From a virus: a stretch of 64,000 nucleotides of DNA. Each line of letters starts with the position of its first letter. The first letter of the stretch is position 1. The stretch is taken from positions 4,417 through 68,416 of IMG/VR virus record IMGVR_UViG_3300037247_000353. The stretch is one strand, 5' to 3'. The position numbers were made by a program, and so were the translations under genes. Shown here in pieces: positions 22,598 to 33,847 of this stretch. The notes beneath the pieces were generated by a model. That model made no database searches. It saw nothing but the letters and a program-made list of their open reading frames with translations, and was not told the DNA's origin.

Positions 22598-23470
22598 CTA
22601 AATCCTATTATATTTTTTATTAAACCATTTTAGTTTTTGCTCATCAACATTGGCTTGACTATTTCTCATTCGTCCTTGAGTTAAGAACATTTCTACTGCT
22701 CTTTCTTTTGAGATTAAGCTATTAGCTTTGTTATCCTCATGAGGGCTCCAGCCTAATCTTAAAAGAAAGTTTAACAATGCTTCTGGATTGTAATCAACAT
22801 ATTGAGAAAGAGAAAAACTACTATCACGTTTACTTAATTTCTTCCCGTCCTTGAAAAGTAACCCAACATGAGCAAATTTAGGTAGCTTTTGCGCTCTGTC
22901 TGGAAAACATTTATTTAGAGCATTCCAAATAGCAATTTGTTTCGGAGTATTTGAGATATGGTCTGTCCCTCTAATGATATAGTTAATAGTGTGATCCCAA
23001 TCATCCACCACACTAGCCAACTGATAAGTAGGACTGTTATTAGACACATCCCCCCGTAAGAGAATAAGCCTCTTATCAATTTGCTCATAATTTGTTTCAG
23101 TGATGGGAATATCTCCTGCAATTTCATCATACCATGCCTCCGGGAGTTCAGGATTGTGAAGAGCTATCGCACCATTAGGTAATCTTATTGCTACTTTTTT
23201 GTCTAACAAGATTAATGCAAATCCCGTGTATAAATCTATGTATTCACTCTGACAAAACTGTTTATCAAAGTCTAGCCCAAACCAACCTATCACAGTAAAG
23301 ATTGCTTTAGATACAGCCTCCTGATTACGTCTTGCATCCGTATCATCCACCCTAACTAAAAATTTACCACCACTAGCCCTTGCAGCCAACCAATTAAAAT
23401 AGGCTGTTCTCATAGTACCTAAATGCATTTCACCAGTGGGTGATGGTGCTATTCTAGTGTTATATACCAT
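22598..23470 (-). CDS. gltX: Minimal glutamyl-tRNA synthetase (catalytic domain only, no anticodon-binding domain)
   Basis: RIAPSPTG, HLGT (HIGH), RTAYFNWL, PTYQLASVVDD, IRGTDH, KKLSKR (KMSKS), PEALLNFLLRLGW; ends KLKWFNKKY at the domain boundary; 290 aa. Confidence 0.85.
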   Translation of the reverse strand: MVYNTRIAPSPTGEMHLGTMRTAYFNWLAARASGGKFLVRVDDTDARRNQEAVSKAIFTVIGWFGLDFDKQFCQSEYIDLYTGFALILLDKKVAIRLPNGAIALHNPELPEAWYDEIAGDIPITETNYEQIDKRLILLRGDVSNNSPTYQLASVVDDWDHTINYIIRGTDHISNTPKQIAIWNALNKCFPDRAQKLPKFAHVGLLFKDGKKLSKRDSSFSLSQYVDYNPEALLNFLLRLGWSPHEDNKANSLISKERAVEMFLTQGRMRNSQANVDEQKLKWFNKKYNRI

Positions 23471-23685
23471 TATTCAACCTTTTTATTTAATAGCACAACT
23501 TTCACTAAATTATGCATATCTTGTATAATTTCTATATAGTTCATCCTTTGAAGGAATGATAATTCATCACACTTTACTCTCCATCCAGTAATTAATTCAT
23601 TTTCCTTATATATTTTTCCTTGTATATAATCCTTTTGATATTGCACAGAAAGCGTAAATGTCCTAAGCACAATAAAATATTTCAT
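23470..23685 (-). CDS. Small ORF, C-terminal helix family
   Basis: Ends DMHNLVKVVLLNK. Confidence 0.45.
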   Translation of the reverse strand: MKYFIVLRTFTLSVQYQKDYIQGKIYKENELITGWRVKCDELSFLQRMNYIEIIQDMHNLVKVVLLNKKVE

Positions 23686-23933
23686 TTGATTGACTCATTA
23701 AATAATACACACTTTATTAAATCTTCTATATTTTTAGGCTCAGTTATTGTAACCCACCCATCTCTAATAAGATACTTTATTCGCTGTATTAAAGACATTC
23801 CCGGACAAGTAGTATTTAAATCCACAAATTCTAATGCGGATTGACAATATATAGTCCCTGGTTGAAACCACACATAAGATCTATCACTTAATTTTTTTAA
23901 ATAGAATGCGCGTCTAGGGGTAAAAAATAACAT
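23682..23933 (-). CDS. Small ORF, C-terminal helix family
   Basis: Ends NIEDLIKCVLFNE. Confidence 0.45.
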   Translation of the reverse strand: MLFFTPRRAFYLKKLSDRSYVWFQPGTIYCQSALEFVDLNTTCPGMSLIQRIKYLIRDGWVTITEPKNIEDLIKCVLFNESIK

Positions 23934-26071
23934 CAGCCAATCTCTTCTTTAACAACAGTTTCTAAATTTAATAAATTTGTTCCGCGCTTTATTTCAATCA
24001 TCAGGGGGGTATCAAGCTCTATATCGTACCTTCTTTTTAACGCCGCAGGAATCTGTCTATGAGATTCAAGAATTAAATCTCGTACAAGATCTAGTTCATC
24101 TGGATGTGTATCAATTACTCCATCATCATGGGTTGTAAGACATAACAAAGATTTTGGTTTATATTCTTGCCAAAGATACCATAATTCAATTAACCATACT
24201 GGTACTATATCTGCTGTGGCAAACCCTTGAACTGGATAATTCTTAATTTGTGTTGCGTTAGTTGATGTTCCCCATTTAGTACGTTTAGCATTTGGAAAAG
24301 CATACTCTCTACCAGATGGCAACACAATCTTTTTAGTTGTAATTGCTTCAGTTTGTAATCTATCATGCCACCTAGCAATATCTTCATGCTTCTCTAAAAA
24401 GAATTTATAATACGCCCTTTCATTGTCAGTACCAGTAGATCCGCCGTATAAAGGCTTGAAGGTATGGGGTTTAGCATCTTGCCTAGAGCATTCAATAATA
24501 TCTGCTGTAACTTGATGTGCATCAACTTTATTTTTAATATCTTCACGTCCTGCTTTATCATTAGCTAAAAATACCGCTGTTCGATACTCTAATTGACCTT
24601 GATCTGCATCTGTTAATACACCCCCATCAAACCGCGATATAAACACTTTTCTAATGGGAAATGTATGTACTCTTGGTTGGTTTTGAAGATTAGGACTCCT
24701 ACTCGTTAAGCGTGCAGTTGCTGCTACGCATTGTAAGTATTGTTGATGTAATATATCATCTTCACCAACAGCTTTTTCAATACCAGCTACAAAAGTGTTT
24801 AAATACGTCTCAATTGCATTTAATCGTGTCACCCCAACAAAAAATTCCTTTTCCGGCCCTAAAGAACTTTGAGCTAAATATTCTAACGTTTCTTTACTTG
24901 TTCTAAACCCACCCGCTGTTGTTTCATATGATCCACGAGGAATCTTTTTAAATCCTGCAATCTGTGCAAGTTGTTGATAAATAATTCCAACTCCATTACA
25001 ATCTCTACATGATGTAAGCTTTTTGGCAGCTTCACCAGTTTTATTAATTTTTCTGGATTTTCCTGCGCCCTGGCAAGCAGGGCATTGGTTCGCAGTAGTT
25101 CTGTATATAGGGCATGTGTATCTTTTAACATAGTGTACAAACTCCTTTTCCTTCATTCGGGTTCGGTATTTCTGCCGAACTGTGGTGCCTGTTTGTTCTA
25201 TCCCAATATTAAATATTCTCTTCCAAACAGGTTTATCAGTTACCTTACGACTGTAAATTAATTGAGAAAGCTGTTCAGGACTGTCTAAATTAATTGGTGT
25301 ATCTCCCATAACATTAGCTACCATTTTTCCTAGTTTATTTTTCAATACTATTTGTTCTTTTAAATACTCTTTCTTAACTTTTCTAAGGGCCTTTTTATCT
25401 ATTTTAATTCCATTACCTTCCATATCAATTAATACTTTTGTGTACTCATTCATCATTTTTATAGTTGGAATTAATCCTTTATTTTCTTTCTTTTTAAGTT
25501 CTTCTTGTTGCTCTAACCAAAGACATAAAAGAGCGTCAATATCACTTATATTATATTCAGAAAGAATTTCAAATGGAACATTTTCCATACTAATATTTTT
25601 ATCTAGGTATTCTTGTATCAAATCAGCCCTTTTAGTTGCACTTAAATTATACTGTCTACCAAGTGCTTCTAATGATATGGCCTTTTTTATTCCTCTATTT
25701 AAAACATATTGTCGTATCATAGTACAATCAATATCACAAACATATTTAAACCCACTTTCCCACAACCACGCCAAATCAAACTTCGTATTGTGACAGACTA
25801 ATAAAGATGTATTATCAAGAATTTTTTGAATTTCTTCTTTACTTTGTAATTGCTCTTTAACAAAAACAGGCTGTAATTCATGATAAAATAATCGAAATTG
25901 AATTTTTATCTCAGTTTGAGACATTTTTAAATAGTATTTTAGAATATTACTTAATGAAAGCGATAGATATGCAACACTTACAAGTTTATTTTTAGGATTA
26001 TACGGACTCGGATCTTTTTTCCCATTAATAACTTGATAGGTTGTTTCACAATCTAAGAATGTTATGGTCAT
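23933..26071 (-). CDS. polA: DNA polymerase family A with inserted DnaJ-type zinc finger
   Basis: Exo I DCET, HNTKFD, YNISD; CPACQGAG and CRDCNGVG insertion; motif A DQGQLEYR, motif B KPHTFKPLYG (Phe762 type), motif C HDD. Confidence 0.92.
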   Translation of the reverse strand: MTITFLDCETTYQVINGKKDPSPYNPKNKLVSVAYLSLSLSNILKYYLKMSQTEIKIQFRLFYHELQPVFVKEQLQSKEEIQKILDNTSLLVCHNTKFDLAWLWESGFKYVCDIDCTMIRQYVLNRGIKKAISLEALGRQYNLSATKRADLIQEYLDKNISMENVPFEILSEYNISDIDALLCLWLEQQEELKKKENKGLIPTIKMMNEYTKVLIDMEGNGIKIDKKALRKVKKEYLKEQIVLKNKLGKMVANVMGDTPINLDSPEQLSQLIYSRKVTDKPVWKRIFNIGIEQTGTTVRQKYRTRMKEKEFVHYVKRYTCPIYRTTANQCPACQGAGKSRKINKTGEAAKKLTSCRDCNGVGIIYQQLAQIAGFKKIPRGSYETTAGGFRTSKETLEYLAQSSLGPEKEFFVGVTRLNAIETYLNTFVAGIEKAVGEDDILHQQYLQCVAATARLTSRSPNLQNQPRVHTFPIRKVFISRFDGGVLTDADQGQLEYRTAVFLANDKAGREDIKNKVDAHQVTADIIECSRQDAKPHTFKPLYGGSTGTDNERAYYKFFLEKHEDIARWHDRLQTEAITTKKIVLPSGREYAFPNAKRTKWGTSTNATQIKNYPVQGFATADIVPVWLIELWYLWQEYKPKSLLCLTTHDDGVIDTHPDELDLVRDLILESHRQIPAALKRRYDIELDTPLMIEIKRGTNLLNLETVVKEEIG

Positions 26072-26511
26072 TGATTTGCTTCTAAAGTTTGATAGTAGAA
26101 ACTATGTAAAAACCCGAGTGGGGCTTTACCACCAATTTGCCAAAGCCATAAGGCCCTACCAGAGCGCCCGTTGCCATCCGTGAATGGATGAAGTTGCTCG
26201 TAAGCTAAATGGGTTTGGTAAGAGTTTGAAGAGCGATTTGGATGAATACTATGTAATAAAACTTCTAATTGTTTTTCAATTTGTGGGCCGCCCGCCGGTG
26301 GGTAGAAGCTTCCTACGCGAACATCAAGCCCTGAACGGGCTCTAAGTATTGCTCCTGGTTGTATAATTGATACAAAGGCTTCAAGGTCTCTTACTGTAAT
26401 CTCTTTATTCGCTAAAAGAACCTCATGCGCTGCTATTTCTTCTTGGGTTGGATTTCTATTTATCCCTTCAATTCTATTACTTTCTGTTATAAAATCTTTA
26501 AGAGTCCACAT
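26068..26511 (-). CDS. Fic-domain protein (AMPylase)
   Basis: Canonical HPFTDGNGRSGR. Confidence 0.88.
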   Translation of the reverse strand: MWTLKDFITESNRIEGINRNPTQEEIAAHEVLLANKEITVRDLEAFVSIIQPGAILRARSGLDVRVGSFYPPAGGPQIEKQLEVLLHSIHPNRSSNSYQTHLAYEQLHPFTDGNGRSGRALWLWQIGGKAPLGFLHSFYYQTLEANQ

Positions 26512-26514
26512 AAT

Positions 26515-26835
26515 CTACTCCATAGTTGGTAGAGTTGAAGTTATAGTCTTAAACTGCTCAACAGTCATTCTTTTATTCCATTCTAACATTGCAACAATAA
26601 ATCTACCAAGAGAAAATTCTTTTTCAAGAAGATCTGCATTAATAGTCCATGAGCGCCCATCATGTAATTTTGTGCAACACATTAATCGATATCCAGGGTT
26701 TGTGTGAATCTCAATAATTTTAACAGGCATAAAAGGAAAATAATGACAGTACAAACAAAAATGCCCTTTATAGCTCCCATTACTCCAATTACCACGAAAC
26801 ACAAAATAGGCCGTATCCCCTATATTAAACATCAA
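26515..26835 (-). CDS. SH3/KOW-like hypothetical protein
   Basis: MFNIGDTAYF start. Confidence 0.4.
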   Translation of the reverse strand: MMFNIGDTAYFVFRGNWSNGSYKGHFCLYCHYFPFMPVKIIEIHTNPGYRLMCCTKLHDGRSWTINADLLEKEFSLGRFIVAMLEWNKRMTVEQFKTITSTLPTME

Positions 26836-27679
26836 ATAATCTCCGTATCTCTTCTGAATTATAGCACTTTAAATCTTCTGTTAAAAGATGAATAGTTGTT
26901 GGCCTATAATATTGCAATTCTTTCTGCATACTAAGTGCTAATTTAGAGGCATCTTTATCTAATGCAATAATGAATCTCTCATATTGTAAAAACTCTTTTA
27001 AATAATTAGCCTGTAAAAAAGTCCCTAATAAGGCTGCACTATCACAATAGGCACTGGCTGCACAAGCAGAACAACAATCTTCAACAATAATTAAAGTTTT
27101 ATATATTGGATCTTGTTTATGCCTATTCGTTGGACAAATAAATGCCTGAGAAGATTTTCCGTAACGTCTCCATTTTGGAGCGCCTCCTTTTGTAAGCCTT
27201 TTCCCAACAGCATCAATAGGTACCCCAGTAGATAAATCCCAAATCATAAAAACAATTCTATCATCGTATGGATCATAGCGAATATCTGCCAAATCCTCCC
27301 TGTAGGCATCCCAACAGTTATTATCATGCAAAAATTTATTAATTCTTTCTCGTCCAACTGTTTCTGGTATAAAAATAAATCTATCTAATGAGAAACTACT
27401 GTTAGATTTCTTATTTACAACAACTTCAAACTCTCTTTTTAAACTTTCTGTGCTAATATCTGTTTGTCTTCTACCCTTAAGTTTACAAGAAGCTTTAAAA
27501 CAATAAAATAATATTACGGTACCTAAATTAGTTACACTAAAAGTATTTTTACCCCCACAACTTGGACAATCCATACGCCTACTTGTTTGAGGCTCTGGAA
27601 TATCTTTAAGAAGATGTTGTAATTTTATTTCTGATTCTATTAAGTTCATTTTGTACATCCGGGTATGTGTCATAACCAA
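26825..27679 (-). CDS. DNA primase (zinc finger + TOPRIM)
   Basis: CPSCGG...YCFKASC, IVED, IALDKDA; real start may be a downstream Met. Confidence 0.82.
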   Translation of the reverse strand: MVMTHTRMYKMNLIESEIKLQHLLKDIPEPQTSRRMDCPSCGGKNTFSVTNLGTVILFYCFKASCKLKGRRQTDISTESLKREFEVVVNKKSNSSFSLDRFIFIPETVGRERINKFLHDNNCWDAYREDLADIRYDPYDDRIVFMIWDLSTGVPIDAVGKRLTKGGAPKWRRYGKSSQAFICPTNRHKQDPIYKTLIIVEDCCSACAASAYCDSAALLGTFLQANYLKEFLQYERFIIALDKDASKLALSMQKELQYYRPTTIHLLTEDLKCYNSEEIRRLFDV

Positions 27680-29249
27680 GATAAAACCAATTATCTTTAA
27701 AGAATTTAATACTTTGTATAATTATGGCTGAAATATCATCAGAATCAAAATTAGCTTCCTCTACTAGTGTTGTATTAACAACAAGAATATTTGCTAATAT
27801 CTCCTTTATTGTTGAAAATAGCTGTCCCATGCTGAAAGAAGTATCATCATATTTAGAGAAATCCTCCCATGCCCATTTTAATATTTCTGCGTAATCAGAA
27901 ACTTCAATTGTGTATAGCGCCGAATGATCGTTATAAATTTGAAAGTTCCTATTAGTTAACATAATCAATGTGTTATATAATTCTTTTTGTTTGCTCCCAA
28001 GATCACCAGTGTCTGTTTTAGACTCAGGGATTACAGCAGGAAGGGTTTTATCTTTAGACTGCTGTTTTAATAGGGCATTTTCCTTTAACAAATCTAAAAT
28101 AGCTTGTTGTAATTCAAAGGCAGATTTTGTTTGTTCAATATATTGTCTAATTAGCCGCCGCATACCTACCTCACTACATGAGTTAATAAGACCCTTAGAA
28201 AGCACCCAAGGAGGAAGTTTATTGGAGTCAGTATTATAATTTATATCTTTATAAGACGTGTATTTTCCAATAGATGTCACATTGTCTCTAGGCCAGCCTG
28301 TACCATACACAGGAGGGGCTTTATATAATGATCTTTCAGTTGGAAGATCCTCCCAATCAACTTTTATTAGGGCAGGTGTTAATATAGTAGTAAGCCAAGC
28401 AGTATTTAAGCATTCTTCAGAGCTATGTTGACAAAAGTATCCAACAGATAGATTAGTACACTCTGAAATCAAGCCAGTATAATTTGCAGTATCTGTAAAC
28501 GTTCCTATTGCCCCTTTAAACCTCCTATTTATTTTATTTGGAGTTATAATTAAGTCCGTTAATTGATCTGCAAACGCATTTACGAATTTGTGTGAGCAAC
28601 ATACACCCCCCCTTTGTCTATCTATAATATCTAAATAGTCCATTCTATCAAATGCAATAGCTCTTTCTATGCCAGCTACAAGCCCAGGCTTTCTGTTTCT
28701 AATATCGGATGAACCAACCCCGCCAACCTCTTCACCAACATGAAAAATATAAAGTCCAGGTATCTTGGCCCGTATTAAATTAATTAAGATAAAAATTCCT
28801 GCTTTATCATCAGCACCTAAAGTGGTAGGAGTATACAAATAACGCCCATCTTTATATTCGTTTGTTATACCCCCCCAAACAAAACTCTTTTTTGCTCTCT
28901 CACTCTCTTGAGCTATAAATAAATCTAATTTTTTAGGTTTACCTTCTAGATCAGTAAAATATCCTTTCCTAAACACCATATCTATATGGCAAGAAAACAT
29001 TGTTGTATGGTTTCCTCCGACTTTAACTATAAGATTGCCTACCCCATCTTTATACATTTTTTGCCCTTTTGGGAGGTATTTTTTTATGGTGGCTGTTATT
29101 GCTTCATATAACGGATGAGGAGCTATGCAGGATAACAGATCATACAGCATAAAGGGTATTATTTTTTCTTTTCTGATTAGTTTACAGACTTTTGTATCGG
29201 CTTTAGGTAAAAAGCTCTGTTTATTGCGCCAAGGTGTCTTGCTACCCAT
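27606..29249 (-). CDS. M28/M20-clan zinc peptidase with C-terminal helical extension
   Basis: CHID, LGADDKAG, GEEVGGVGS, AFDR, GYFCQH. Confidence 0.8.
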   Translation of the reverse strand: MGSKTPWRNKQSFLPKADTKVCKLIRKEKIIPFMLYDLLSCIAPHPLYEAITATIKKYLPKGQKMYKDGVGNLIVKVGGNHTTMFSCHIDMVFRKGYFTDLEGKPKKLDLFIAQESERAKKSFVWGGITNEYKDGRYLYTPTTLGADDKAGIFILINLIRAKIPGLYIFHVGEEVGGVGSSDIRNRKPGLVAGIERAIAFDRMDYLDIIDRQRGGVCCSHKFVNAFADQLTDLIITPNKINRRFKGAIGTFTDTANYTGLISECTNLSVGYFCQHSSEECLNTAWLTTILTPALIKVDWEDLPTERSLYKAPPVYGTGWPRDNVTSIGKYTSYKDINYNTDSNKLPPWVLSKGLINSCSEVGMRRLIRQYIEQTKSAFELQQAILDLLKENALLKQQSKDKTLPAVIPESKTDTGDLGSKQKELYNTLIMLTNRNFQIYNDHSALYTIEVSDYAEILKWAWEDFSKYDDTSFSMGQLFSTIKEILANILVVNTTLVEEANFDSDDISAIIIQSIKFFKDNWFYLGYDTYPDVQNELNRIRNKITTSS

Positions 29250-30850
29250 TAGGTAACTCCCGATTCTGTAGAACGAAGTGTGCTATTACTTGAAAGTAAT
29301 CCAAGAGAATATAATTTTTCACATAGTTCTTGTTTCATAGAATAAGATTTACCCATATACGCAACCCTATAGCCCGATGTAGAAAATTCATTAGGTTCTG
29401 TTTTAATCGAATTTATTGTTTTATTATCTATAGATACATAATCATGAATAACAAGAACCCCACCATATTTCATACAGCTATGCTTATTAGTATAAATGAG
29501 TGTTCTATTAAAATAATCTAGATAACAAGTATTCAAAAGTCGTAATTGTAATTGCCCATCAGAGTTACGAGCATAAACATAACCATGATCATGGGCGCAT
29601 TTCTTGCTACAAAATGTTTTACCCCCCTCCCAAGAACTATGACGCCTTTCTTTGCAAATAATACCACAGTTATAACATCTAATAGTTTTTATATGTGATT
29701 CTCTAATAAATCCTCCAGTAGAACCTGTTGGAATATTAGCTAAAGAAGATTCGGAACAGTCAAAGGTTAAAATAAATTCTTTACTCTTAGTGTCAAAGTC
29801 TCCATGAATATTTGTAGATATATTATCCATATAGGGCATGGGTAGCAAGTGTTCTTTCAAAGTTTTACTATAAAGCCCCGGAACCCTAATTTGTATAGGT
29901 TTAGAAAACCTATCATTTAGTTTGTTGTATCCAAGATCGTTAAGTATATTTATGAATTTTGAAGCATAAAAATTGTTTATGGTAAACACACGTCCGTATT
30001 TCCAAATACCAGGGCTTGTTTGGTAAATACAAGTTCGTGCTACAACTTGTTTATTTTTAACGCAATAAACCCCTTTAATATCAGGATGATAGGCTAATAA
30101 AGACATAGGGTGGTGTCCATGCTTTAATATTTCGCTCCAAGCCGTTATTTTATCATCAGTTAATGTCATACAGGTGCCAACCCCGTTGTTCCTAAACATA
30201 TCCACATAGTCTTTGGGTTTCTCTGCATATATTAATTCAAGTGGTCTAGTTAATTCGATATAAGAATCAGCCAAAGCATTTATTTGATCATTTTTAAGAT
30301 ATTTTCTAATGTTTGTATACCTAGTAAGTGCTCGTATTACCGAGATTTCTTCATATCTTTTAATTTTTTTCCATGCTCTTGAAAACGGACTCCAACTATT
30401 GGGCTTATCATACCTAATTTTATTAAATGTTTTTAGACCATCAAAACAAATGATCCAACAAATATTTTTTAAATCCGATAAATTAATTGTATCCAATACT
30501 AAATTTGGAAAAACACAAACATTACCAGGAGTCTTACTAGCAATTATTATAGGGGAATGTTCAAAAATCTTATCCATTTGTAGGCTCATATTAAGTCTAT
30601 TATTTTGTTCACCAATTTCCAAATCCTCTTGAAATTTTAGATAGCGGATATGCAAAAACCTAGTTAATCTGGCAGCCGCGTTAAACACTGGATCATTTTT
30701 TAAAATCTTTTGAGTTTGTAATAATTCTTTATATTGTATTTGTAATTCCTTTGACACTAGAGGTAAATAATCCTTTTCAATTAATTTTAACTCCTTTGAA
30801 AGACCAGCAAAATTAATCCTACAGTGATCTCTATTAGCTACTTGTGGCAT
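29249..30850 (-). CDS. Conserved phage protein, (S/T)CM...AR...YG...PY-x-D family, paralog 2
   Basis: GTCMT, KGVY...VART, YGRVF, LPMPYMD; C-terminal CxxC/FCS zinc ribbon. Confidence 0.55.
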   Translation of the reverse strand: MPQVANRDHCRINFAGLSKELKLIEKDYLPLVSKELQIQYKELLQTQKILKNDPVFNAAARLTRFLHIRYLKFQEDLEIGEQNNRLNMSLQMDKIFEHSPIIIASKTPGNVCVFPNLVLDTINLSDLKNICWIICFDGLKTFNKIRYDKPNSWSPFSRAWKKIKRYEEISVIRALTRYTNIRKYLKNDQINALADSYIELTRPLELIYAEKPKDYVDMFRNNGVGTCMTLTDDKITAWSEILKHGHHPMSLLAYHPDIKGVYCVKNKQVVARTCIYQTSPGIWKYGRVFTINNFYASKFINILNDLGYNKLNDRFSKPIQIRVPGLYSKTLKEHLLPMPYMDNISTNIHGDFDTKSKEFILTFDCSESSLANIPTGSTGGFIRESHIKTIRCYNCGIICKERRHSSWEGGKTFCSKKCAHDHGYVYARNSDGQLQLRLLNTCYLDYFNRTLIYTNKHSCMKYGGVLVIHDYVSIDNKTINSIKTEPNEFSTSGYRVAYMGKSYSMKQELCEKLYSLGLLSSNSTLRSTESGVT

Positions 30851-30852
30851 TG

Positions 30853-31857
30853 CTATCTCCGTGTCAATGTTTCGTGTGCAGGTTGCATATCTGAATCGAA
30901 GTATCCGCGATAATAATATGAACTACCTAGCAGCTTAGCTGATTTTGGTAAAAGCTTTTTTGGACCAAAATAAAACATATTTTCTTTTTTATTAAAATGA
31001 CAATAATATCCTCGGCTTAAACAGTCGTGGTAAGGCAAAGGACATATTGGTTTTTCCAATATTTGTATTGCTGGAACCTTAAAAACACTATTTATATTGG
31101 GGCGATTATCGTAGCAACTAGCGGTAAAACCCTTATTTTTCAAAATCGCCAAAAATAAAGATCTATAAAAGCCGGATTCTGCATAAATAATTCCATAATA
31201 TTTTTTAAATTTATGTGTTGGATTTTTTCTAATTAAGATTGCCCTAGCAACCCCTCTATTTGCAACTTTCAAATACACACCCTGCGTATATGGACAGTGA
31301 GAATACCACATAGACGGCCATAAATTATGTTCTTTATACAAATAGTTCCGTAACCAAGTATTATATGATGTACTTTTAGGAGACATACAACTAAGTGCAT
31401 GAACCTCATACAAAGCAATATGATCTTCAGGAGTCTCACAAATTACCATCTTTGCAGAATTTTTTAATATCTTATGCATTATTTTTTGGGAGTAGTCTCG
31501 TATTTCATTATCCTTAAGTCCACTTTTATTTAACCTTAAATATTTAATCAGAAAAGAAGTTAGTTTTACAGTCTCATTAACTTTTAAATAGTTAGTTTCT
31601 GGAACTGTTTTTAGTTTTCTTTTTAGCCCAATTAAAGTAGGTTTAAATGTGTCTTCATCTATTTTAATCTTACGTTTAACTAGTTTTGTATTAAATTGAA
31701 TATGCTTATACACACGCACACGACCCTCCCCGTTCAGAGAGGCTAATGGCAATTTTATGGGAATGGAATCTGGGAATTCTTTGCGAATAATACGAAATAT
31801 AACATATGCTTCAGGGCACGTACTGTCCAATAACGTTTCAATAGATTTGGAAAACAT
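30853..31857 (-). CDS. Conserved phage protein, (S/T)CM...AR...YG...PY-x-D family, paralog 1
   Basis: LSCMS, QGVY...VARA, YYGIIY, CPLPYHD; aligns by eye with 29249-30850. Confidence 0.55.
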   Translation of the reverse strand: MFSKSIETLLDSTCPEAYVIFRIIRKEFPDSIPIKLPLASLNGEGRVRVYKHIQFNTKLVKRKIKIDEDTFKPTLIGLKRKLKTVPETNYLKVNETVKLTSFLIKYLRLNKSGLKDNEIRDYSQKIMHKILKNSAKMVICETPEDHIALYEVHALSCMSPKSTSYNTWLRNYLYKEHNLWPSMWYSHCPYTQGVYLKVANRGVARAILIRKNPTHKFKKYYGIIYAESGFYRSLFLAILKNKGFTASCYDNRPNINSVFKVPAIQILEKPICPLPYHDCLSRGYYCHFNKKENMFYFGPKKLLPKSAKLLGSSYYYRGYFDSDMQPAHETLTRR

Positions 31858-31882
31858 TTAAAGCTCCTACACATTTGATAGG

Positions 31883-31977
31883 TGGCGTCCCAGGCTGGAT
31901 TTGAACCAACGTTTCACTCTCTAGTTATCCACTAGTGACTCAAGAGAGAGCGTCCTAGACCGCTAGACGACAGGGAC
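31883..31977 (-). tRNA. tRNA-Glu-like RNA with expanded (24-nt) anticodon loop, encoded CCA
   Basis: GTCCCTG TC GTCT AGCGGTCTA GGAC G CTCTC [TCTTGAGTCACTAGTGGATAACTA] GAGAG TGAAAC GTTGG TTCAAAT CCAGC CTGGGAC G CCA; acceptor and D arms nearly identical to bacterial tRNA-Glu. Confidence 0.85.
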
Positions 31978-31980
31978 ATA

Positions 31981-32025
31981 CGGGGGAATCTCTTCCCCCG
32001 ATTAACCACTAAGAATTTAGCGGTT
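31981..32025 (-). other. Two stem-loops immediately 5' of the tRNA-like RNA
   Basis: AACCGCTAA-ATTC-TTAGTGGTT (G-U pair only on the minus strand) and CGGGGGAA-GAGA-TTCCCCCG (GNRA loop), ending 3 nt before tRNA G1. Confidence 0.65.
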
Positions 32026-32029
32026 TATG

Positions 32030-32467
32030 TCACGCTTGCCCTGAGAGCTTGTAGGAGCCAACAACAGTAGCCTTGCCTCGCCCTGGTCCTACCGCGAAAT
32101 CACGCGACCGGAGATTGAGGGAAACACAGTCACCATCACGATTTGTGCCAAGGTGGGCATAGACATTATTACCCTCGGCAATCGTGAACAGCATATCATC
32201 TGCAACCTTTGAACGGGCCATCTTCTTATGCTGACTTGGGGGAAGGAAGTTCGCCTTAATGTCGTAGGAGCCCACGACAATTACCTTCTTACCAGCCCCT
32301 GAGACTGATGTGAAGGCCAGATTACCATTCGCCATATTGATGCTGGCGAACTTTCCGTTTTGACCAATAGCACCGTAACGTTTTTGGCCAATACGACCGC
32401 TGGCCATGCTGATACCAAAAATTGCACCAACAGGGACACTACGACGAGTAGTTTTCTTATTCGGCAT
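32030..32467 (-). CDS. Basic protein with two tandem beta-rich repeats
   Basis: 145 aa; halves end SIN...VIVVGSYDI and SLN...ATVVGSYKL; GC richer than neighbours. Confidence 0.6.
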   Translation of the reverse strand: MPNKKTTRRSVPVGAIFGISMASGRIGQKRYGAIGQNGKFASINMANGNLAFTSVSGAGKKVIVVGSYDIKANFLPPSQHKKMARSKVADDMLFTIAEGNNVYAHLGTNRDGDCVSLNLRSRDFAVGPGRGKATVVGSYKLSGQA

Positions 32468-32473
32468 TTACAA

Positions 32474-32709
32474 TCCTATCTGGATTTGGGTTTCAACATT
32501 ATAGGACAGTAACCTTACACCAGGGCGTCATGGCGACCCGATGCGACTTCGCTGCCCTTCACCAAAGTCAAGGTGTTCGATGACGAGACCTGTTTTGTCA
32601 CCTACAGGGAGGCGGACCCATGTATCTCGCCTTTAGGGGTGGTAGCCTTATTCCTAGGATGGCATCTGCCGAGCCAAAACTACCACGCAGAACGCTTCTT
32701 TCATCCATT
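32474..32709 (-). ncRNA. Candidate structured RNA / 5' leader
   Basis: GC-rich intergenic region after a clear promoter; several helices and a possible H-type pseudoknot (see findings). Confidence 0.55.
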
Positions 32710-32715
32710 ATCTAA

Positions 32716-32744
32716 ATAATACCATAATGAATCAATTAAGTCAA
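32716..32744 (-). promoter_or_regulatory. Sigma70-type promoter TTGACT-17-TATTAT (extended -10)
   Basis: Direct motif match; points into the structured RNA/tRNA operon. Confidence 0.7.
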
Positions 32745-33523: not shown

Positions 33524-33847
33524 CTACTCCGGGGGTTTCAACATTTGTTGTATATTTTTAAACGCATGTTTTTTATGAATATCAGACATTTTAAATTGAT
33601 TATCCTCTAAATCAGTTCTGTAATCTCCCTGCAAGACAGCACGATGATACTCAATTCTATTAGTCCACTTACCAAGAAATAAATGAATACAGCCAAGACT
33701 TAATTTTTTGTCATAATAATTATACAATTGTGTTTTAATATCATAAGTTAAGGGTTTTGGCATAAGGGGATTAAATAAATGAGGAAAGTCTGTTGTAAGG
33801 ACGCAAAATATATTTGTATATATATTTAACCTAGTAGGACTTTTCAC
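33524..33847 (-). CDS. ProQ/FinO-domain RNA chaperone
   Basis: FPHLF...PKPL..DI...LS...LFL.KWT...EY...V......R.DL......H..HA follows the ProQ/FinO pattern. Confidence 0.65.
   Translation of the reverse strand: MKSPTRLNIYTNIFCVLTTDFPHLFNPLMPKPLTYDIKTQLYNYYDKKLSLGCIHLFLGKWTNRIEYHRAVLQGDYRTDLEDNQFKMSDIHKKHAFKNIQQMLKPPE

What the first reader, a model, noticed from the sequence alone, without database searches (positions are those of the whole stretch)
22598..32744. Candidate non-ribosomal, tRNA-dependent glutamyl-transfer system: anticodon-blind GluRS, anticodon-less tRNA-Glu, Cys-motif paralogs and an M28 peptidase
Seen: a GluRS ending before its anticodon-binding domain (22598-23470), and a tRNA keeping the acceptor/D-arm features of tRNA-Glu but with no normal anticodon loop (31883-31977). 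The two losses match each other. Seen: that tRNA is downstream of promoter 32716-32744 and is followed closely by two paralogous unknown proteins (334 and 533 aa, conserved (S/T)CM Cys) and a zinc peptidase. Established: aminoacyl-tRNAs act as donors outside translation (Fem ligases, L/F-transferase, MprF, lantibiotic dehydratases using Glu-tRNA-Glu), and the M28/M20 clan includes glutamate carboxypeptidases. Related podophages carry ATP-dependent amidoligase clusters, but no amidoligase is visible here. Inference: the mini-GluRS charges the dedicated tRNA, the Cys-motif proteins transfer Glu to a protein, cell-wall or nucleic-acid target, and the peptidase reverses or trims it. Alternatives: Glu-tRNA supply for C5 tetrapyrrole synthesis (class II RNR needs B12), or decoys against host toxins.
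Basis: partly seen in the sequence, partly recalled or inferred. Interest (0 to 1): 0.92.

Follow-up and report, generated by a model that had tools for sequence, protein, structure and literature searches.

The report
Phage glutamate tRNA mimic without anticodon
A marine phage carries a glutamate-charging enzyme that cannot read anticodons together with a glutamate-tRNA look-alike that has no anticodon, next to two unknown enzymes and a peptidase, which suggests a way of using charged tRNA for something other than making proteins.

Summary
All parts of the observation are real. The window is a 68-kb marine podophage of the HMO-2011 type.

- **Short GluRS (22598-23470):** a catalytic core only. 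No anticodon-binding domain occurs anywhere in the genome. It belongs to a large family of about 290-aa phage proteins.
- **tRNA-Glu-like RNA (31883-31977):** it has a tRNA-Glu body, encoded CCA and a covarying cloverleaf, but no 7-nt anticodon loop. Ten such genes turned up in seven loci. In relatives the loop is replaced by tetraloops or long hairpins, so splicing into a decoder is excluded for those.
- **The 334-aa and 533-aa proteins:** they are paralogs with a GNAT-like core. The longer one also has an L24e/FCS-type zinc finger.
- **Peptidase:** it is of the M28/M20 type.

The tRNA mimic, the SCM protein (named for its invariant Ser-Cys-Met motif) and the peptidase recur together in diverged relatives, usually with the short GluRS nearby. 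That supports a functional module.

Three results weaken the link:
- One complete relative has GluRS, SCM protein and peptidase but no detectable mimic.
- Most short GluRS genes sit beside normal tRNA-Glu genes in large phages.
- The SCM-peptidase pair also occurs in at least 123 cultured Klebsiella and Pectobacterium phages that lack GluRS.

Glutamyl transfer itself is untested. This scan had already noted short GluRS genes and anticodon-less tRNA-Glu scaffolds in other phages.

The parts
32716..32744 (-). sigma-70-like promoter heading the operon
   Evidence: TTGACT-17-TATTAT with TG, 10 of 12 matches. It is conserved in L012. The number of such sites in the region is not above chance.
32468..32715 (-). 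G+C-rich leader RNA of the 145-aa gene. About 125 nt of it (32578-32705) are missing in relatives.
   Evidence: Sequence. L012 has the short form. Contigs of runs X2 and X4 skip 123-128 nt here (table 5). No Rfam match up to E 10.
32030..32467 (-). 145-aa protein of no known family, directly upstream of the tRNA mimic
   Evidence: No hit in Pfam, PHROGs or NCBIfam. It is 76% identical in L012 and 62% in L011, at the same place. A weak look-alike lies before the SCM gene of L016 (E 3e-4).
31981..32000 (-). G+C-rich hairpin just before the tRNA mimic; no T run follows it
   Evidence: Sequence. A hairpin also lies at the same place in L012 and L011. No terminator-like site was found.
31883..31977 (-). 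tRNA-Glu-like RNA with encoded CCA and a long arm in place of the anticodon stem-loop
   Evidence: Rfam tRNA 36.8 bits. Own model R1 gives 71.2 bits. Body covariation is shown. Variation in relatives is confined to 31922-31936, and a 95-nt unitig equals these exact bounds.
30853..31857 (-). 334-aa SCM-family protein, the shorter paralog, without the zinc finger
   Evidence: Paralogy E 9e-11. 13 close relatives; S156, C157 and M158 are invariant.
29249..30850 (-). 533-aa SCM-family protein: GNAT-like core (about residues 204-314), L24e/FCS-type zinc finger (about 390-427), C-terminal beta domain
   Evidence: 196 representatives. Model pLDDT 93.3. All top 50 VIA rows are GNAT folds. Zinc finger E 1.4e-4. 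Homologous to phrog_13313.
27606..29249 (-). 547-aa metallopeptidase (M28/M20/M42 type) with an unknown C-terminal half; its start overlaps the stop of the SCM gene
   Evidence: phrog_4191 at 1.7e-52. Homologs pass the Pfam M28 cut-off. It lies next to the SCM gene in L012, L014, L015, L016, L033, L071 and L009, and in cultured phages.
22598..23470 (-). 290-aa glutamyl-tRNA synthetase catalytic core without an anticodon-binding domain and with a shortened insertion domain

Best explanation
This is an accessory module of HMO-2011-type marine podophages. It is built around a non-decoding glutamate carrier.

**Shown**
- (a) The GluRS core keeps the class I signature motifs but has no anticodon-reading domain.
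- (b) The RNA keeps the acceptor stem, the CCA end, the T arm and the tRNA-Glu-specific D arm, but has no anticodon loop.
- (c) One or two GNAT-like SCM proteins and an M28-type peptidase lie directly downstream of the RNA.

**Inferred**
- The short GluRS glutamylates the mimic. A standard GluRS, which depends on the anticodon, would charge it poorly.
- The product cannot be used by the ribosome, so it is a private pool of activated glutamate.
- The SCM proteins bind this RNA, the long paralog perhaps through its zinc finger.
- The SCM proteins transfer the glutamyl group to an unknown acceptor by the chemistry known from Fem, Leu/Phe-tRNA-protein and arginyl transferases.
- The peptidase prepares, trims or reverses the product.

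In relatives without a mimic, host Glu-tRNA-Glu would serve as donor.
For: **GluRS**
- It is a catalytic core only.
- Of the best 120 relatives, 117 are 217-334 aa long.
- The HxGT motif and the KMSKR-type motif KK(L/M)SKR are conserved across 38 family members.

**The short GluRS family goes with tRNA-Glu**
- 8 of 35 short-GluRS loci have normal tRNA-Glu(UUC/CUC) genes within 4 kb on the same strand, in arrays in 6 of them.
- 3 more loci have anticodon-less tRNA-Glu-like genes.

**The mimic is under selection as a tRNA body**
- 97.9% of cells are paired, 12 of 16 pairs show compensatory change, and 0 of 500 shuffles reach this.
- D-stem pairs U11-A24 and U13-G22 are kept in 9 of 9 sequences, and CCA is encoded in 9 of 9.
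- These D-arm pairs, with G1-C72 and U2-A71, are GluRS identity elements in E. coli, where the anticodon is the strong determinant (PMC9976931, passages read).

**The anticodon loop is replaced in different ways**
- It is a CUUG, GCAA or GCUC tetraloop, or a 36-38-nt irregular arm.
- In other metagenomes only the tip of the arm varies.

**Gene neighbourhood**
- The mimic is followed by an SCM gene and then the peptidase in the window, L012, L033 and L009. L011 has the same order, but its contig ends about 50 codons into the second (533-type) SCM gene, so no peptidase is visible.
- In L071 the same genes lie within 3.4 kb of the mimic.
- L009 was found through a tRNA D-arm pattern, and L033 and L071 through GluRS, so these three were not selected for SCM.
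- GluRS lies within 4 kb of the SCM gene in L016, L033 and L071.

**Absence in cultured relatives**
- The 12 cultured HMO-2011-type records have no match to GluRS, either SCM paralog or the 145-aa protein.

**Fold**
- The SCM core is GNAT-like: all top 50 VIA rows, Z 7.3 to 5.3, about 85-100 residues aligned.
- Aminoacyl-tRNA users appear among these rows: FemA, Sbb17, and the aminoacyl-tRNA acetylase TacT.
- The long paralog carries an L24e/FCS-type zinc finger.
Against: - No charging, binding or transfer has been measured. No RNA data exist for this phage.
- The one complete relative tested, G001 (62 kb, holding L016), has GluRS, SCM protein and peptidase but no match to model R1. The mimic is therefore dispensable there, or too diverged to detect.
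- Only 3 of 35 short-GluRS loci hold SCM and peptidase within 10 kb. 19 of 35 show no tRNA-Glu-type gene nearby.
- The SCM family is homologous to phrog_13313 proteins (hhalign probability 97.6%, E 4.3e-12). These sit before an M28 peptidase and the primase in 123 cultured phage records, and none of those is among the 37 records with a GluRS match.
- All module members belong to one phage lineage with conserved gene order, so shared ancestry explains part of the linkage.
- The fold scores are middling: Z is under 8 and the best Foldseek E is 2.3e-3. The best rows are acetyl-CoA enzymes, with FemA only at rank 44 to 50.
- In the window, GluRS lies 7.4 kb from the SCM genes, with the replication genes in between.
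Confidence: 0.35

Rival explanations
1. The mimic and the short GluRS form a pair, but the SCM proteins and the peptidase are not its users. The RNA is a decoy, sponge or regulator. It could titrate a host factor that recognises the tRNA-Glu body or the GluRS-tRNA complex, such as a HipA-type kinase or another tRNA-directed toxin. It could also act as the RNA cofactor that GluRS-type enzymes need to activate glutamate. The SCM-peptidase pair would then be an older early-gene pair with its own job.
For: - The SCM-peptidase pair is widespread without GluRS or the mimic.
- The short GluRS is widespread without SCM (32 of 35 loci).
- G002 (holding L049) has GluRS and a tetraloop mimic but no SCM gene in its 32-kb fragment.
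- tRNA mimics without an anticodon loop that are not charged yet act on a synthetase are known (mascRNA and GlnRS, passage of PMC9976931 read).
- HipA phosphorylates GluRS (abstract of PMC8262856 in the listing).
Against: - The mimic sits directly before an SCM gene in 5 loci (window, L012, L011, L033, L009). Two of these (L033, L009) were not selected for SCM.
- CCA is encoded in all 9 aligned mimics, which fits a role for the 3' end.
- No host toxin or target is identified.
- G002 is only about 38% complete.
Confidence: 0.3
2. The SCM proteins are acyl-CoA-dependent GNAT enzymes that act on RNA or on aminoacyl-tRNA. They would acetylate the mimic, Glu-tRNA or another RNA, as TacT-type toxins, TmcA or Kre33 do. 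Alternatively they acylate a protein. In this reading the mimic is their substrate, guide or inhibitor, not an amino-acid donor.
For: - The best fold matches are acetyl-CoA-using GNAT enzymes.
- The RNA cytidine acetyltransferase Kre33 is the top Foldseek row for the full model, and TacT is in the VIA list.
- The zinc finger is of a nucleic-acid-binding type.
Against: - No Pfam GNAT family is hit by sequence in any of 16 family members scanned (10, counting both window paralogs, and 6, counting Gaspode gp14).
- By my reading of the alignment, the loop after the fourth strand lacks the usual acetyl-CoA pyrophosphate-binding motif. That motif is recalled, not tested.
- This reading explains neither the short GluRS nor the peptidase.
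Confidence: 0.15
3. The charged mimic feeds glutamyl-tRNA reductase (the C5 route to aminolevulinate), boosting tetrapyrrole or B12 supply for the phage's ribonucleotide reductase without competing with translation.
For: The phage has a single-chain ribonucleotide reductase (Pfam 4.1e-52). From recalled knowledge, glutamyl-tRNA reductase reads the tRNA-Glu body rather than the anticodon.
Against: - No reductase or aminomutase gene was seen in the ORFs examined.
- The nearest cultured phages infect Alphaproteobacteria, which by recalled knowledge make aminolevulinate by the C4 route.
- This reading does not explain the linkage with the SCM and peptidase genes.
Confidence: 0.05
4. The RNA is not a functional mimic. 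It is a decaying tRNA-Glu gene, an intron-containing decoder, or only an RNase P/Z processing signal in the operon.
For: - ARAGORN with introns allowed reads it as tRNA-Ser(UGA) with a 15-nt intron. Without introns it gives other anticodons for relatives.
- The element lies inside a long operon, after a hairpin.
- The folding energy is not better than that of shuffles (z -0.38).
Against: - The ARAGORN readings differ for each relative (Ser, Arg, Ala, Thr, Tyr, none) and have mismatched stems.
- Mimics of normal length whose anticodon loop is a tetraloop cannot be spliced into decoders.
- The body is invariant or covarying while the arm tip changes freely.
- CCA is always encoded.
- A processing role is not excluded and could coexist with another function.
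Confidence: 0.05

Closest known systems
Bacterial glutamyl-tRNA synthetase (GltX, TIGR00464) and its engineered C-truncated forms
   Same: The catalytic core is the same. The best PDB matches are bacterial GluRS (E 1e-45), and gltX_bact outscores every GluQRS model.
   Different: It ends at about model position 315 of 470, so it has no anticodon-binding domain. Residues 95-106 stand for about 54 model positions of the insertion domain. It belongs to a family of its own of about 290-aa, mostly viral proteins.
GluQRS / YadB (glutamyl-queuosine tRNA-Asp synthetase, TIGR03838, PDB 1nzj and 4a91)
   Same: It is a natural GluRS paralog of about 300 aa without an anticodon-binding domain that puts glutamate on an RNA for a purpose other than decoding.
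   Different: The window protein scores 138 bits against a cut-off of 276.7 on the GluQRS model, and matches 1nzj only over residues 3-82. The associated RNA has a tRNA-Glu body, not tRNA-Asp, and it has no anticodon loop to modify.
Aminoacyl-tRNA-dependent transferases with GNAT-type folds (FemX/FemA, Leu/Phe-tRNA-protein transferase, arginyl transferase, MprF, Sbb17)
   Same: The proposed chemistry is the same, and the core fold is GNAT-like. FemA, FemX and Sbb17 appear among the fold matches.
   Different: There is no sequence match. Fem proteins rank below plain acetyltransferases. The SCM family has an invariant Cys-Met motif and an Arg, a single GNAT-like domain, and an FCS-type zinc finger. 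The donor would be a dedicated non-decoding RNA rather than a cellular tRNA.
tRNA-like RNAs without an anticodon loop (mascRNA; viral 3' tRNA-like structures)
   Same: The RNA has a tRNA-shaped body and interacts with the tRNA machinery without decoding.
   Different: mascRNA is reported as not aminoacylated (PMC9976931, passage). Here the identity elements for one synthetase, the encoded CCA and a matching anticodon-blind synthetase point to charging. The RNA is a free-standing phage gene, not the 3' end of a viral genome.
phrog_13313 protein plus M28 'peptidase' of cultured Autographiviridae (Pectobacterium phage Gaspode gp14/gp15, Klebsiella phage NTUH-K2044-K1-1 ORF4/ORF5)
   Same: These are homologous proteins in the same order: SCM protein, peptidase, small ORF, primase.
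   Different: Those phages show no GluRS match, and no tRNA gene is annotated in the stretches fetched. Both genes are annotated only as hypothetical protein and peptidase.

Membership tests
Glutamyl-tRNA synthetase (bacterial GltX) | Class I catalytic domain of the Glu/Gln type with HIGH-like and KMSKS-like motifs | tested here: met
   PF00749 at 3.6e-51. HxGT and KK(L/M)SKR are conserved in 38 family members. The motif names are recalled.
Glutamyl-tRNA synthetase (bacterial GltX) | C-terminal anticodon-binding domain | tested here: not met
   The TIGR00464 match ends at position 315 of 470, and its 249.5 bits are below the cut-off of 289.95. PF19269 is absent from the whole genome, with the control positive in 12 of 14 genomes.
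Glutamyl-tRNA synthetase (bacterial GltX) | Glutamylation of tRNA-Glu | not testable with these tools
   This needs an enzyme assay.
GluQRS (YadB) | Score above the curated cut-off of the GluQRS models | tested here: not met
   Best is TIGR03838 at 138 bits against a cut-off of 276.7. All five GluQRS models score lower than gltX_bact.
tRNA (Rfam RF00005) | Cloverleaf with acceptor, D and T arms supported by covariation | tested here: met
   36.8 bits against a gathering score of 29 in the local scan. 12 of 16 pairs are compensatory and 97.9% of cells are paired.
tRNA (Rfam RF00005) | Seven-nucleotide anticodon loop with a conserved anticodon | tested here: not met
   The window has 25 nt where the model has 6. 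Relatives have tetraloops or long arms. ARAGORN's anticodons differ in every relative.
tRNA-Glu | G1-C72, U2-A71, U11-A24 and U13-G22 (E. coli identity elements outside the anticodon) | tested here: met
   All four are present in the window RNA. The D-stem pairs are kept in 9 of 9 mimics, G1-C72 in 8 of 9, and U2-A71 in 7 of 9. The rules are taken from PMC9976931.
GNAT superfamily | GNAT fold | tested here: inconclusive
   All top 50 VIA rows are GNAT folds in both the full model and the domain model. However, the best Z is 7.3 (rmsd 3.7, 99 residues aligned) and Foldseek E is never below 2.3e-3.
GNAT superfamily | Match to a Pfam GNAT family, or an acetyl-CoA binding motif | tested here: not met
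   No GNAT family up to E 1 in 10 members, and none up to E 0.1 in 6 more.
Fem / aminoacyl-tRNA transferases | Closer in structure to Fem-type enzymes than to acetyltransferases; use of aminoacyl-tRNA | tested here: inconclusive
   FemA scores Z 5.5 and 5.4 (ranks 44 and 50) and Sbb17 Z 5.3. Use of aminoacyl-tRNA cannot be tested here.
Peptidase family M28 (clan MH) | Score above the Pfam cut-off | tested here: inconclusive
   The window protein has no M28 hit, and its best hit is M42 at 17.4 bits against a cut-off of 23.2. Homologs pass the M28 cut-off: Gaspode gp15 29.1, L071 23.5, K2044 ORF5 22.9 bits against 21.3. phrog_4191 hits at 1.7e-52.
Peptidase family M28 (clan MH) | Metal ligands (His, Asp, Glu-Glu, Asp/Glu, His) | not tested
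   Motifs HIDM, GADDKAG and GEEVGG are visible in the translation. Assigning them as ligands rests on recall, not on an alignment made here.

The most novel reading that the evidence does not exclude
These phages run a natural aminoacyl-tRNA pair that is orthogonal to translation. An anticodon-blind GluRS charges an anticodon-less tRNA-Glu body. This private glutamate carrier is read only by a new family of GNAT-like, Cys-dependent transferases, which glutamylate a host or phage target. An M28 peptidase edits the product. The cultured Klebsiella and Pectobacterium phages that keep only the transferase and the peptidase would do the same with host Glu-tRNA.
Probability: 0.2. Interest if true: 0.92.

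Novelty: new variant of a known kind. Interest (0 to 1): 0.78.

Why it matters
If the pairing holds, it would be a natural synthetase-tRNA pair built to keep an activated amino acid out of translation. Synthetic biologists engineer such pairs, but my six literature searches found none reported from nature.

It would show how GluRS can select its RNA without reading the anticodon.

It would also give a first functional lead for two families that have none:
- the approximately 290-aa phage GluRS family, which has thousands of members;
- the SCM family, with 196 representatives and homologs in at least 123 cultured phage genomes.

The SCM-peptidase pair is present in cultured Klebsiella and Pectobacterium phages, so that part of the question can be tested with ordinary phage genetics.

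Tried and rejected
- **Close relatives among cultured phages.** Megablast of the whole region found no match. tblastn of the 334-aa, 145-aa and 533-aa proteins and of family member P0019 found no match in 50,697 records.
- **IMG/VR scans with the SCM alignments.** A1 gave nothing confirmed. A4 gave one weak locus, L015.
- **Stop-codon recoding.** I considered this because relatives L001 and L003 have UUA-suppressor tRNAs beside the short GluRS. I rejected it for this genome: all three stop codons end long ORFs, and reading any one of them through gives no clear gain.
- **Split GluRS.** Rejected.
- **Kink-turn reading of the long arm.** I tried this by eye and dropped it because the required G-A pairs are not there.
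- **Pairing of the arm tip with another part of the window.** No second match on either strand with up to 3 mismatches.
- **Complex prediction of the 533-aa protein with GluRS.** No verdict. This counts neither for nor against binding.
- **Sequencing runs.** No RNA holder is listed, so expression, RNA ends and splicing could not be examined. The four runs laid are DNA contigs.
- **ESM Atlas.** It returned only unnamed viral clusters. A PcfJ lead (score 0.83, carried by 44% of one cluster) was not confirmed by any Pfam scan.
- **Profile of the SCM family against PDB sequences.** Only the zinc finger matched.
- **Literature.** Six full-text searches found no paper on a phage short GluRS, a phage anticodon-less tRNA-Glu or the SCM family. 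I read passages only of PMC5628999, PMC5852040, PMC9976931 and PMC13434031, and otherwise only listings. Supplements were closed and could hold annotations of such genes.

Full report
**What the window is.** The window is bases 4417-68416 of a 68,416-bp record whose ends overlap. CheckV rates it 100% complete. Its DNA polymerase is closest to Pelagibacter phage HTVC033P (48.5%), then to Roseobacter CRP phages and Puniceispirillum phage HMO-2011. It is therefore an uncultured HMO-2011-type marine podophage. It uses the standard genetic code. The finding lies in the leftward early and replication arm.

**The synthetase.**
- The 290-aa ORF at 22598-23470 has the Glu/Gln class I catalytic domain (3.6e-51).
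- It scores 249.5 bits on the bacterial gltX model, up to position 315 of 470. The best GluQRS model gives 138 bits.
- Residues 95-106 stand for about 54 model positions of the insertion domain.
- Neither of the two ORFs downstream, nor any frame of the genome, holds the anticodon-binding domain.
- It is not an accident of this genome. Of the 120 best relatives, 117 are 217-334 aa and three are longer, at 430, 488 and 493 aa. Many lie on contigs of 60-70 kb or of 200-600 kb.
- The signature motifs are conserved in 38 aligned members.

**The RNA.**
- Default ARAGORN and Rfam at gathering score over the whole window find nothing. A local Rfam scan finds a tRNA of 36.8 bits at 31886-31977 with 25 nt in place of the 6 central loop positions.
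- Its D arm is letter for letter that of ordinary phage tRNA-Glu genes: 5 of 7 exact-pattern hits in IMG/VR were normal tRNA-Glu.
- The same element lies at the same place in two relatives. L012 is syntenic (SCM protein 61% identical), and L011 also has it. Its body is unchanged there but the arm differs. In L011 the arm is a long hairpin with a 3-nt loop.
- A covariance model of the body (R1) found more:
  - one in L071;
  - three in tandem in L033;
  - one in L049;
  - two in tandem in L009.
- Their anticodon position holds a CUUG, GCAA or GCUC tetraloop, an 8-nt loop, a degenerate loop with mismatched stem, or a stem of 5-8 pairs enclosing 15-24 nt.
- Over nine of them, 97.9% of body cells pair, 12 of 16 pairs show compensatory change, and no shuffle of 500 reaches this. 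The D-stem pairs U11-A24 and U13-G22 never vary, and CCA is always encoded.
- In four other metagenome runs, all listed differences inside the element fall at 31922-31936, the tip of the arm. One 95-nt unitig equals 31883-31977 exactly.
- ARAGORN can force other readings: Ser with a 15-nt intron here, and Arg, Ala, Thr or Tyr in relatives. Each is different and each has mismatched stems.
- The tetraloop forms are of normal length and leave nothing to splice.
- I conclude that this is a selected tRNA-Glu body that does not decode.

**The proteins downstream.**
- The 334-aa and 533-aa proteins are paralogs (E 9e-11).
- The longer one has 196 representatives in a library of 1.84 billion proteins. 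Cys227, Met228, Arg272 and two zinc-finger cysteines are invariant in 100 of them. The Atlas clusters nearest to it are viral.
- Its model is confident (pLDDT 93.3; domain alone 94.1).
- In both models all 50 best VIA rows are GNAT-fold proteins, aligned to residues 204-314. Z runs from 7.3 to 5.3. Foldseek agrees in kind but not in strength, with best E 2.3e-3.
- Plain acetyltransferases rank first. FemA, FemX, Sbb17, TacT and Kre33 also appear.
- No Pfam GNAT family matches by sequence.
- Residues of about 390-427 match ribosomal protein L24e and FCS-type zinc fingers (E 1.4e-4).
- The 547-aa protein matches phrog_4191 'peptidase' (1.7e-52). Its homologs pass the Pfam M28 cut-off, while the window protein reaches only M42 at 17.4 bits.

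**Do the parts travel together?**

Searching IMG/VR with the short-GluRS alignment gave 61 loci:
- 35 have a short ORF (222-325 aa from the start of the match).
- 24 have a full-length one (441-501 aa).
- 2 are cut or broken.

The 35 short-GluRS loci divide as follows:

| Group | Loci |
|---|---|
| Normal tRNA-Glu(UUC/CUC) within 4 kb on the same strand (arrays of 2-4 in 6 of them) | 8 |
| Anticodon-less tRNA-Glu-like genes | 3 |
| UUA suppressor | 2 |
| Another tRNA-like gene with 11-32 extra nt in the loop, just upstream | 3 |
| None of these | 19 |

The family is thus tied to tRNA-Glu in general.

Profile searches of all loci found the SCM protein followed by the peptidase in L012, L014, L015, L016, L033, L071 and L009. 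Gene orders are:
- L033: three mimics, SCM protein, peptidase, GluRS, all within 5.5 kb.
- L071: mimic, GluRS, deaminase, SCM protein, peptidase.
- L016: deaminase, GluRS, two small ORFs, SCM protein, peptidase.
- L009: two mimics, SCM protein, peptidase, tRNA-Gln.

L009 was found through the D-arm pattern, and L033 and L071 through GluRS, so these three are not biased towards SCM.

The 12 cultured HMO-2011-type records lack GluRS, both SCM paralogs and the 145-aa protein.

**What speaks against a closed four-part system.**
- The complete 62-kb relative that holds L016 has GluRS, SCM protein and peptidase but no R1 match.
- The fragment with L049 has GluRS and a mimic but no SCM gene. The fragment with L009 has mimics and an SCM gene but no GluRS. 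Both fragments are under half complete.
- Only 3 of 35 short-GluRS loci have SCM genes.
- The SCM family is homologous to phrog_13313 proteins (hhalign probability 97.6%, E 4.3e-12 over 204 columns). These sit before an M28 peptidase and the primase in Pectobacterium, Dickeya, Klebsiella and Acinetobacter podophages. In the Pseudomonas record no peptidase is annotated next to the gene.
- 123 records hold a match to this protein, and none of their organism names are among the 37 records with a GluRS match.
- The SCM-peptidase pair is therefore older and wider than the mimic.
- All module loci belong to one lineage with conserved gene order.

**Reading.** The match between an anticodon-blind enzyme and anticodon-less tRNA-Glu bodies is the best-supported link, and I give it about 0.6. 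It rests on these points:
- The mimics keep the identity elements outside the anticodon and an encoded CCA.
- By the E. coli rules, a normal GluRS needs the anticodon (PMC9976931).
- The short GluRS family is tied to tRNA-Glu in general.

That the GNAT-like SCM proteins use the charged RNA as glutamyl donor, with the peptidase acting on the product, is the most economical way to explain the gene order. It has known chemical precedents. It rests only on neighbourhood and a middling fold match, so I give the whole chain 0.35. The main rival, at 0.3, is a decoy or regulator role for the RNA with unrelated neighbours.

**Relation to earlier notes of this scan.** Other agents had already described the short phage GluRS family, usually beside normal tRNA-Glu genes, and anticodon-less tRNA-Glu scaffolds in giant phages. 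My own searches agree with this.

New in this report:
- the podophage module with SCM proteins and peptidase;
- the tetraloop-capped mimics;
- the GNAT-like fold;
- the link to cultured Autographiviridae.

Noticed in passing
window 32468-32715 (-): The G+C-rich leader of the 145-aa gene has no Rfam match. About 125 nt (32578-32705) are absent in L012 and in contigs of two other runs. A TCCTAT/ATAGGA pairing could hide the ribosome-binding site.
   Followed up: partly
window 33524-33847 (-): A ProQ/FinO-domain protein (Pfam 7.2e-11) lies about 1 kb upstream of the operon and is conserved in L012. It could be an RNA chaperone for the leader or the mimic.
   Followed up: no
window 26068-26511 (-): A small Fic-domain protein (Pfam 1.2e-6) lies between the primase and the DNA polymerase. 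It is shared with L012 but not with L016, L033 or L071.
   Followed up: partly
L001 8640-8715; L003 3878-3953 and 4375-4448: Short GluRS relatives (46%, and 86% over the N-terminus) lie downstream of tRNAs with anticodon UUA, which would read the stop codon UAA. A PTH2-like protein and a tmRNA are nearby. An anticodon-blind GluRS could charge such suppressors.
   Followed up: partly
L022 9482-9585; L030 8217-8320; L025 9536-9619: In large phage contigs, tRNA-like genes with non-Glu bodies and 11-32 extra nucleotides in the anticodon loop sit 0.4 kb (L022, L025) to 1.7 kb (L030) upstream of a short GluRS.
   Followed up: no
L018 9413-9752; L023 9512-9765; L026 9762-9997; L024 8887-9142: Arrays of 3-4 tRNA-Glu genes (UUC and CUC) lie directly before short GluRS genes. 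Some have bodies unlike tRNA-Glu.
   Followed up: partly
L012 15397-15468: The syntenic relative has an ordinary tRNA with anticodon CAU between the 106-aa gene and the Fic gene. The window has none there.
   Followed up: no
L008 3660-4772: A cluster of odd tRNA-Glu-type genes of 75-97 nt lies in a 195-kb viral contig. One D-arm match is followed by a long insert. These may be the elbow-hairpin mimics noted earlier in this scan.
   Followed up: no
window 23933-26071 (-), residues 325-366: The family A DNA polymerase carries an inserted CXXCXGXG-type zinc finger (Pfam DnaJ central domain 3.8e-4, below the cut-off).
   Followed up: no
window 27606-29249 (-), residues about 330-547: The C-terminal half of the peptidase has no family match. 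The cultured-phage homologs (327-348 aa) lack it.
   Followed up: no
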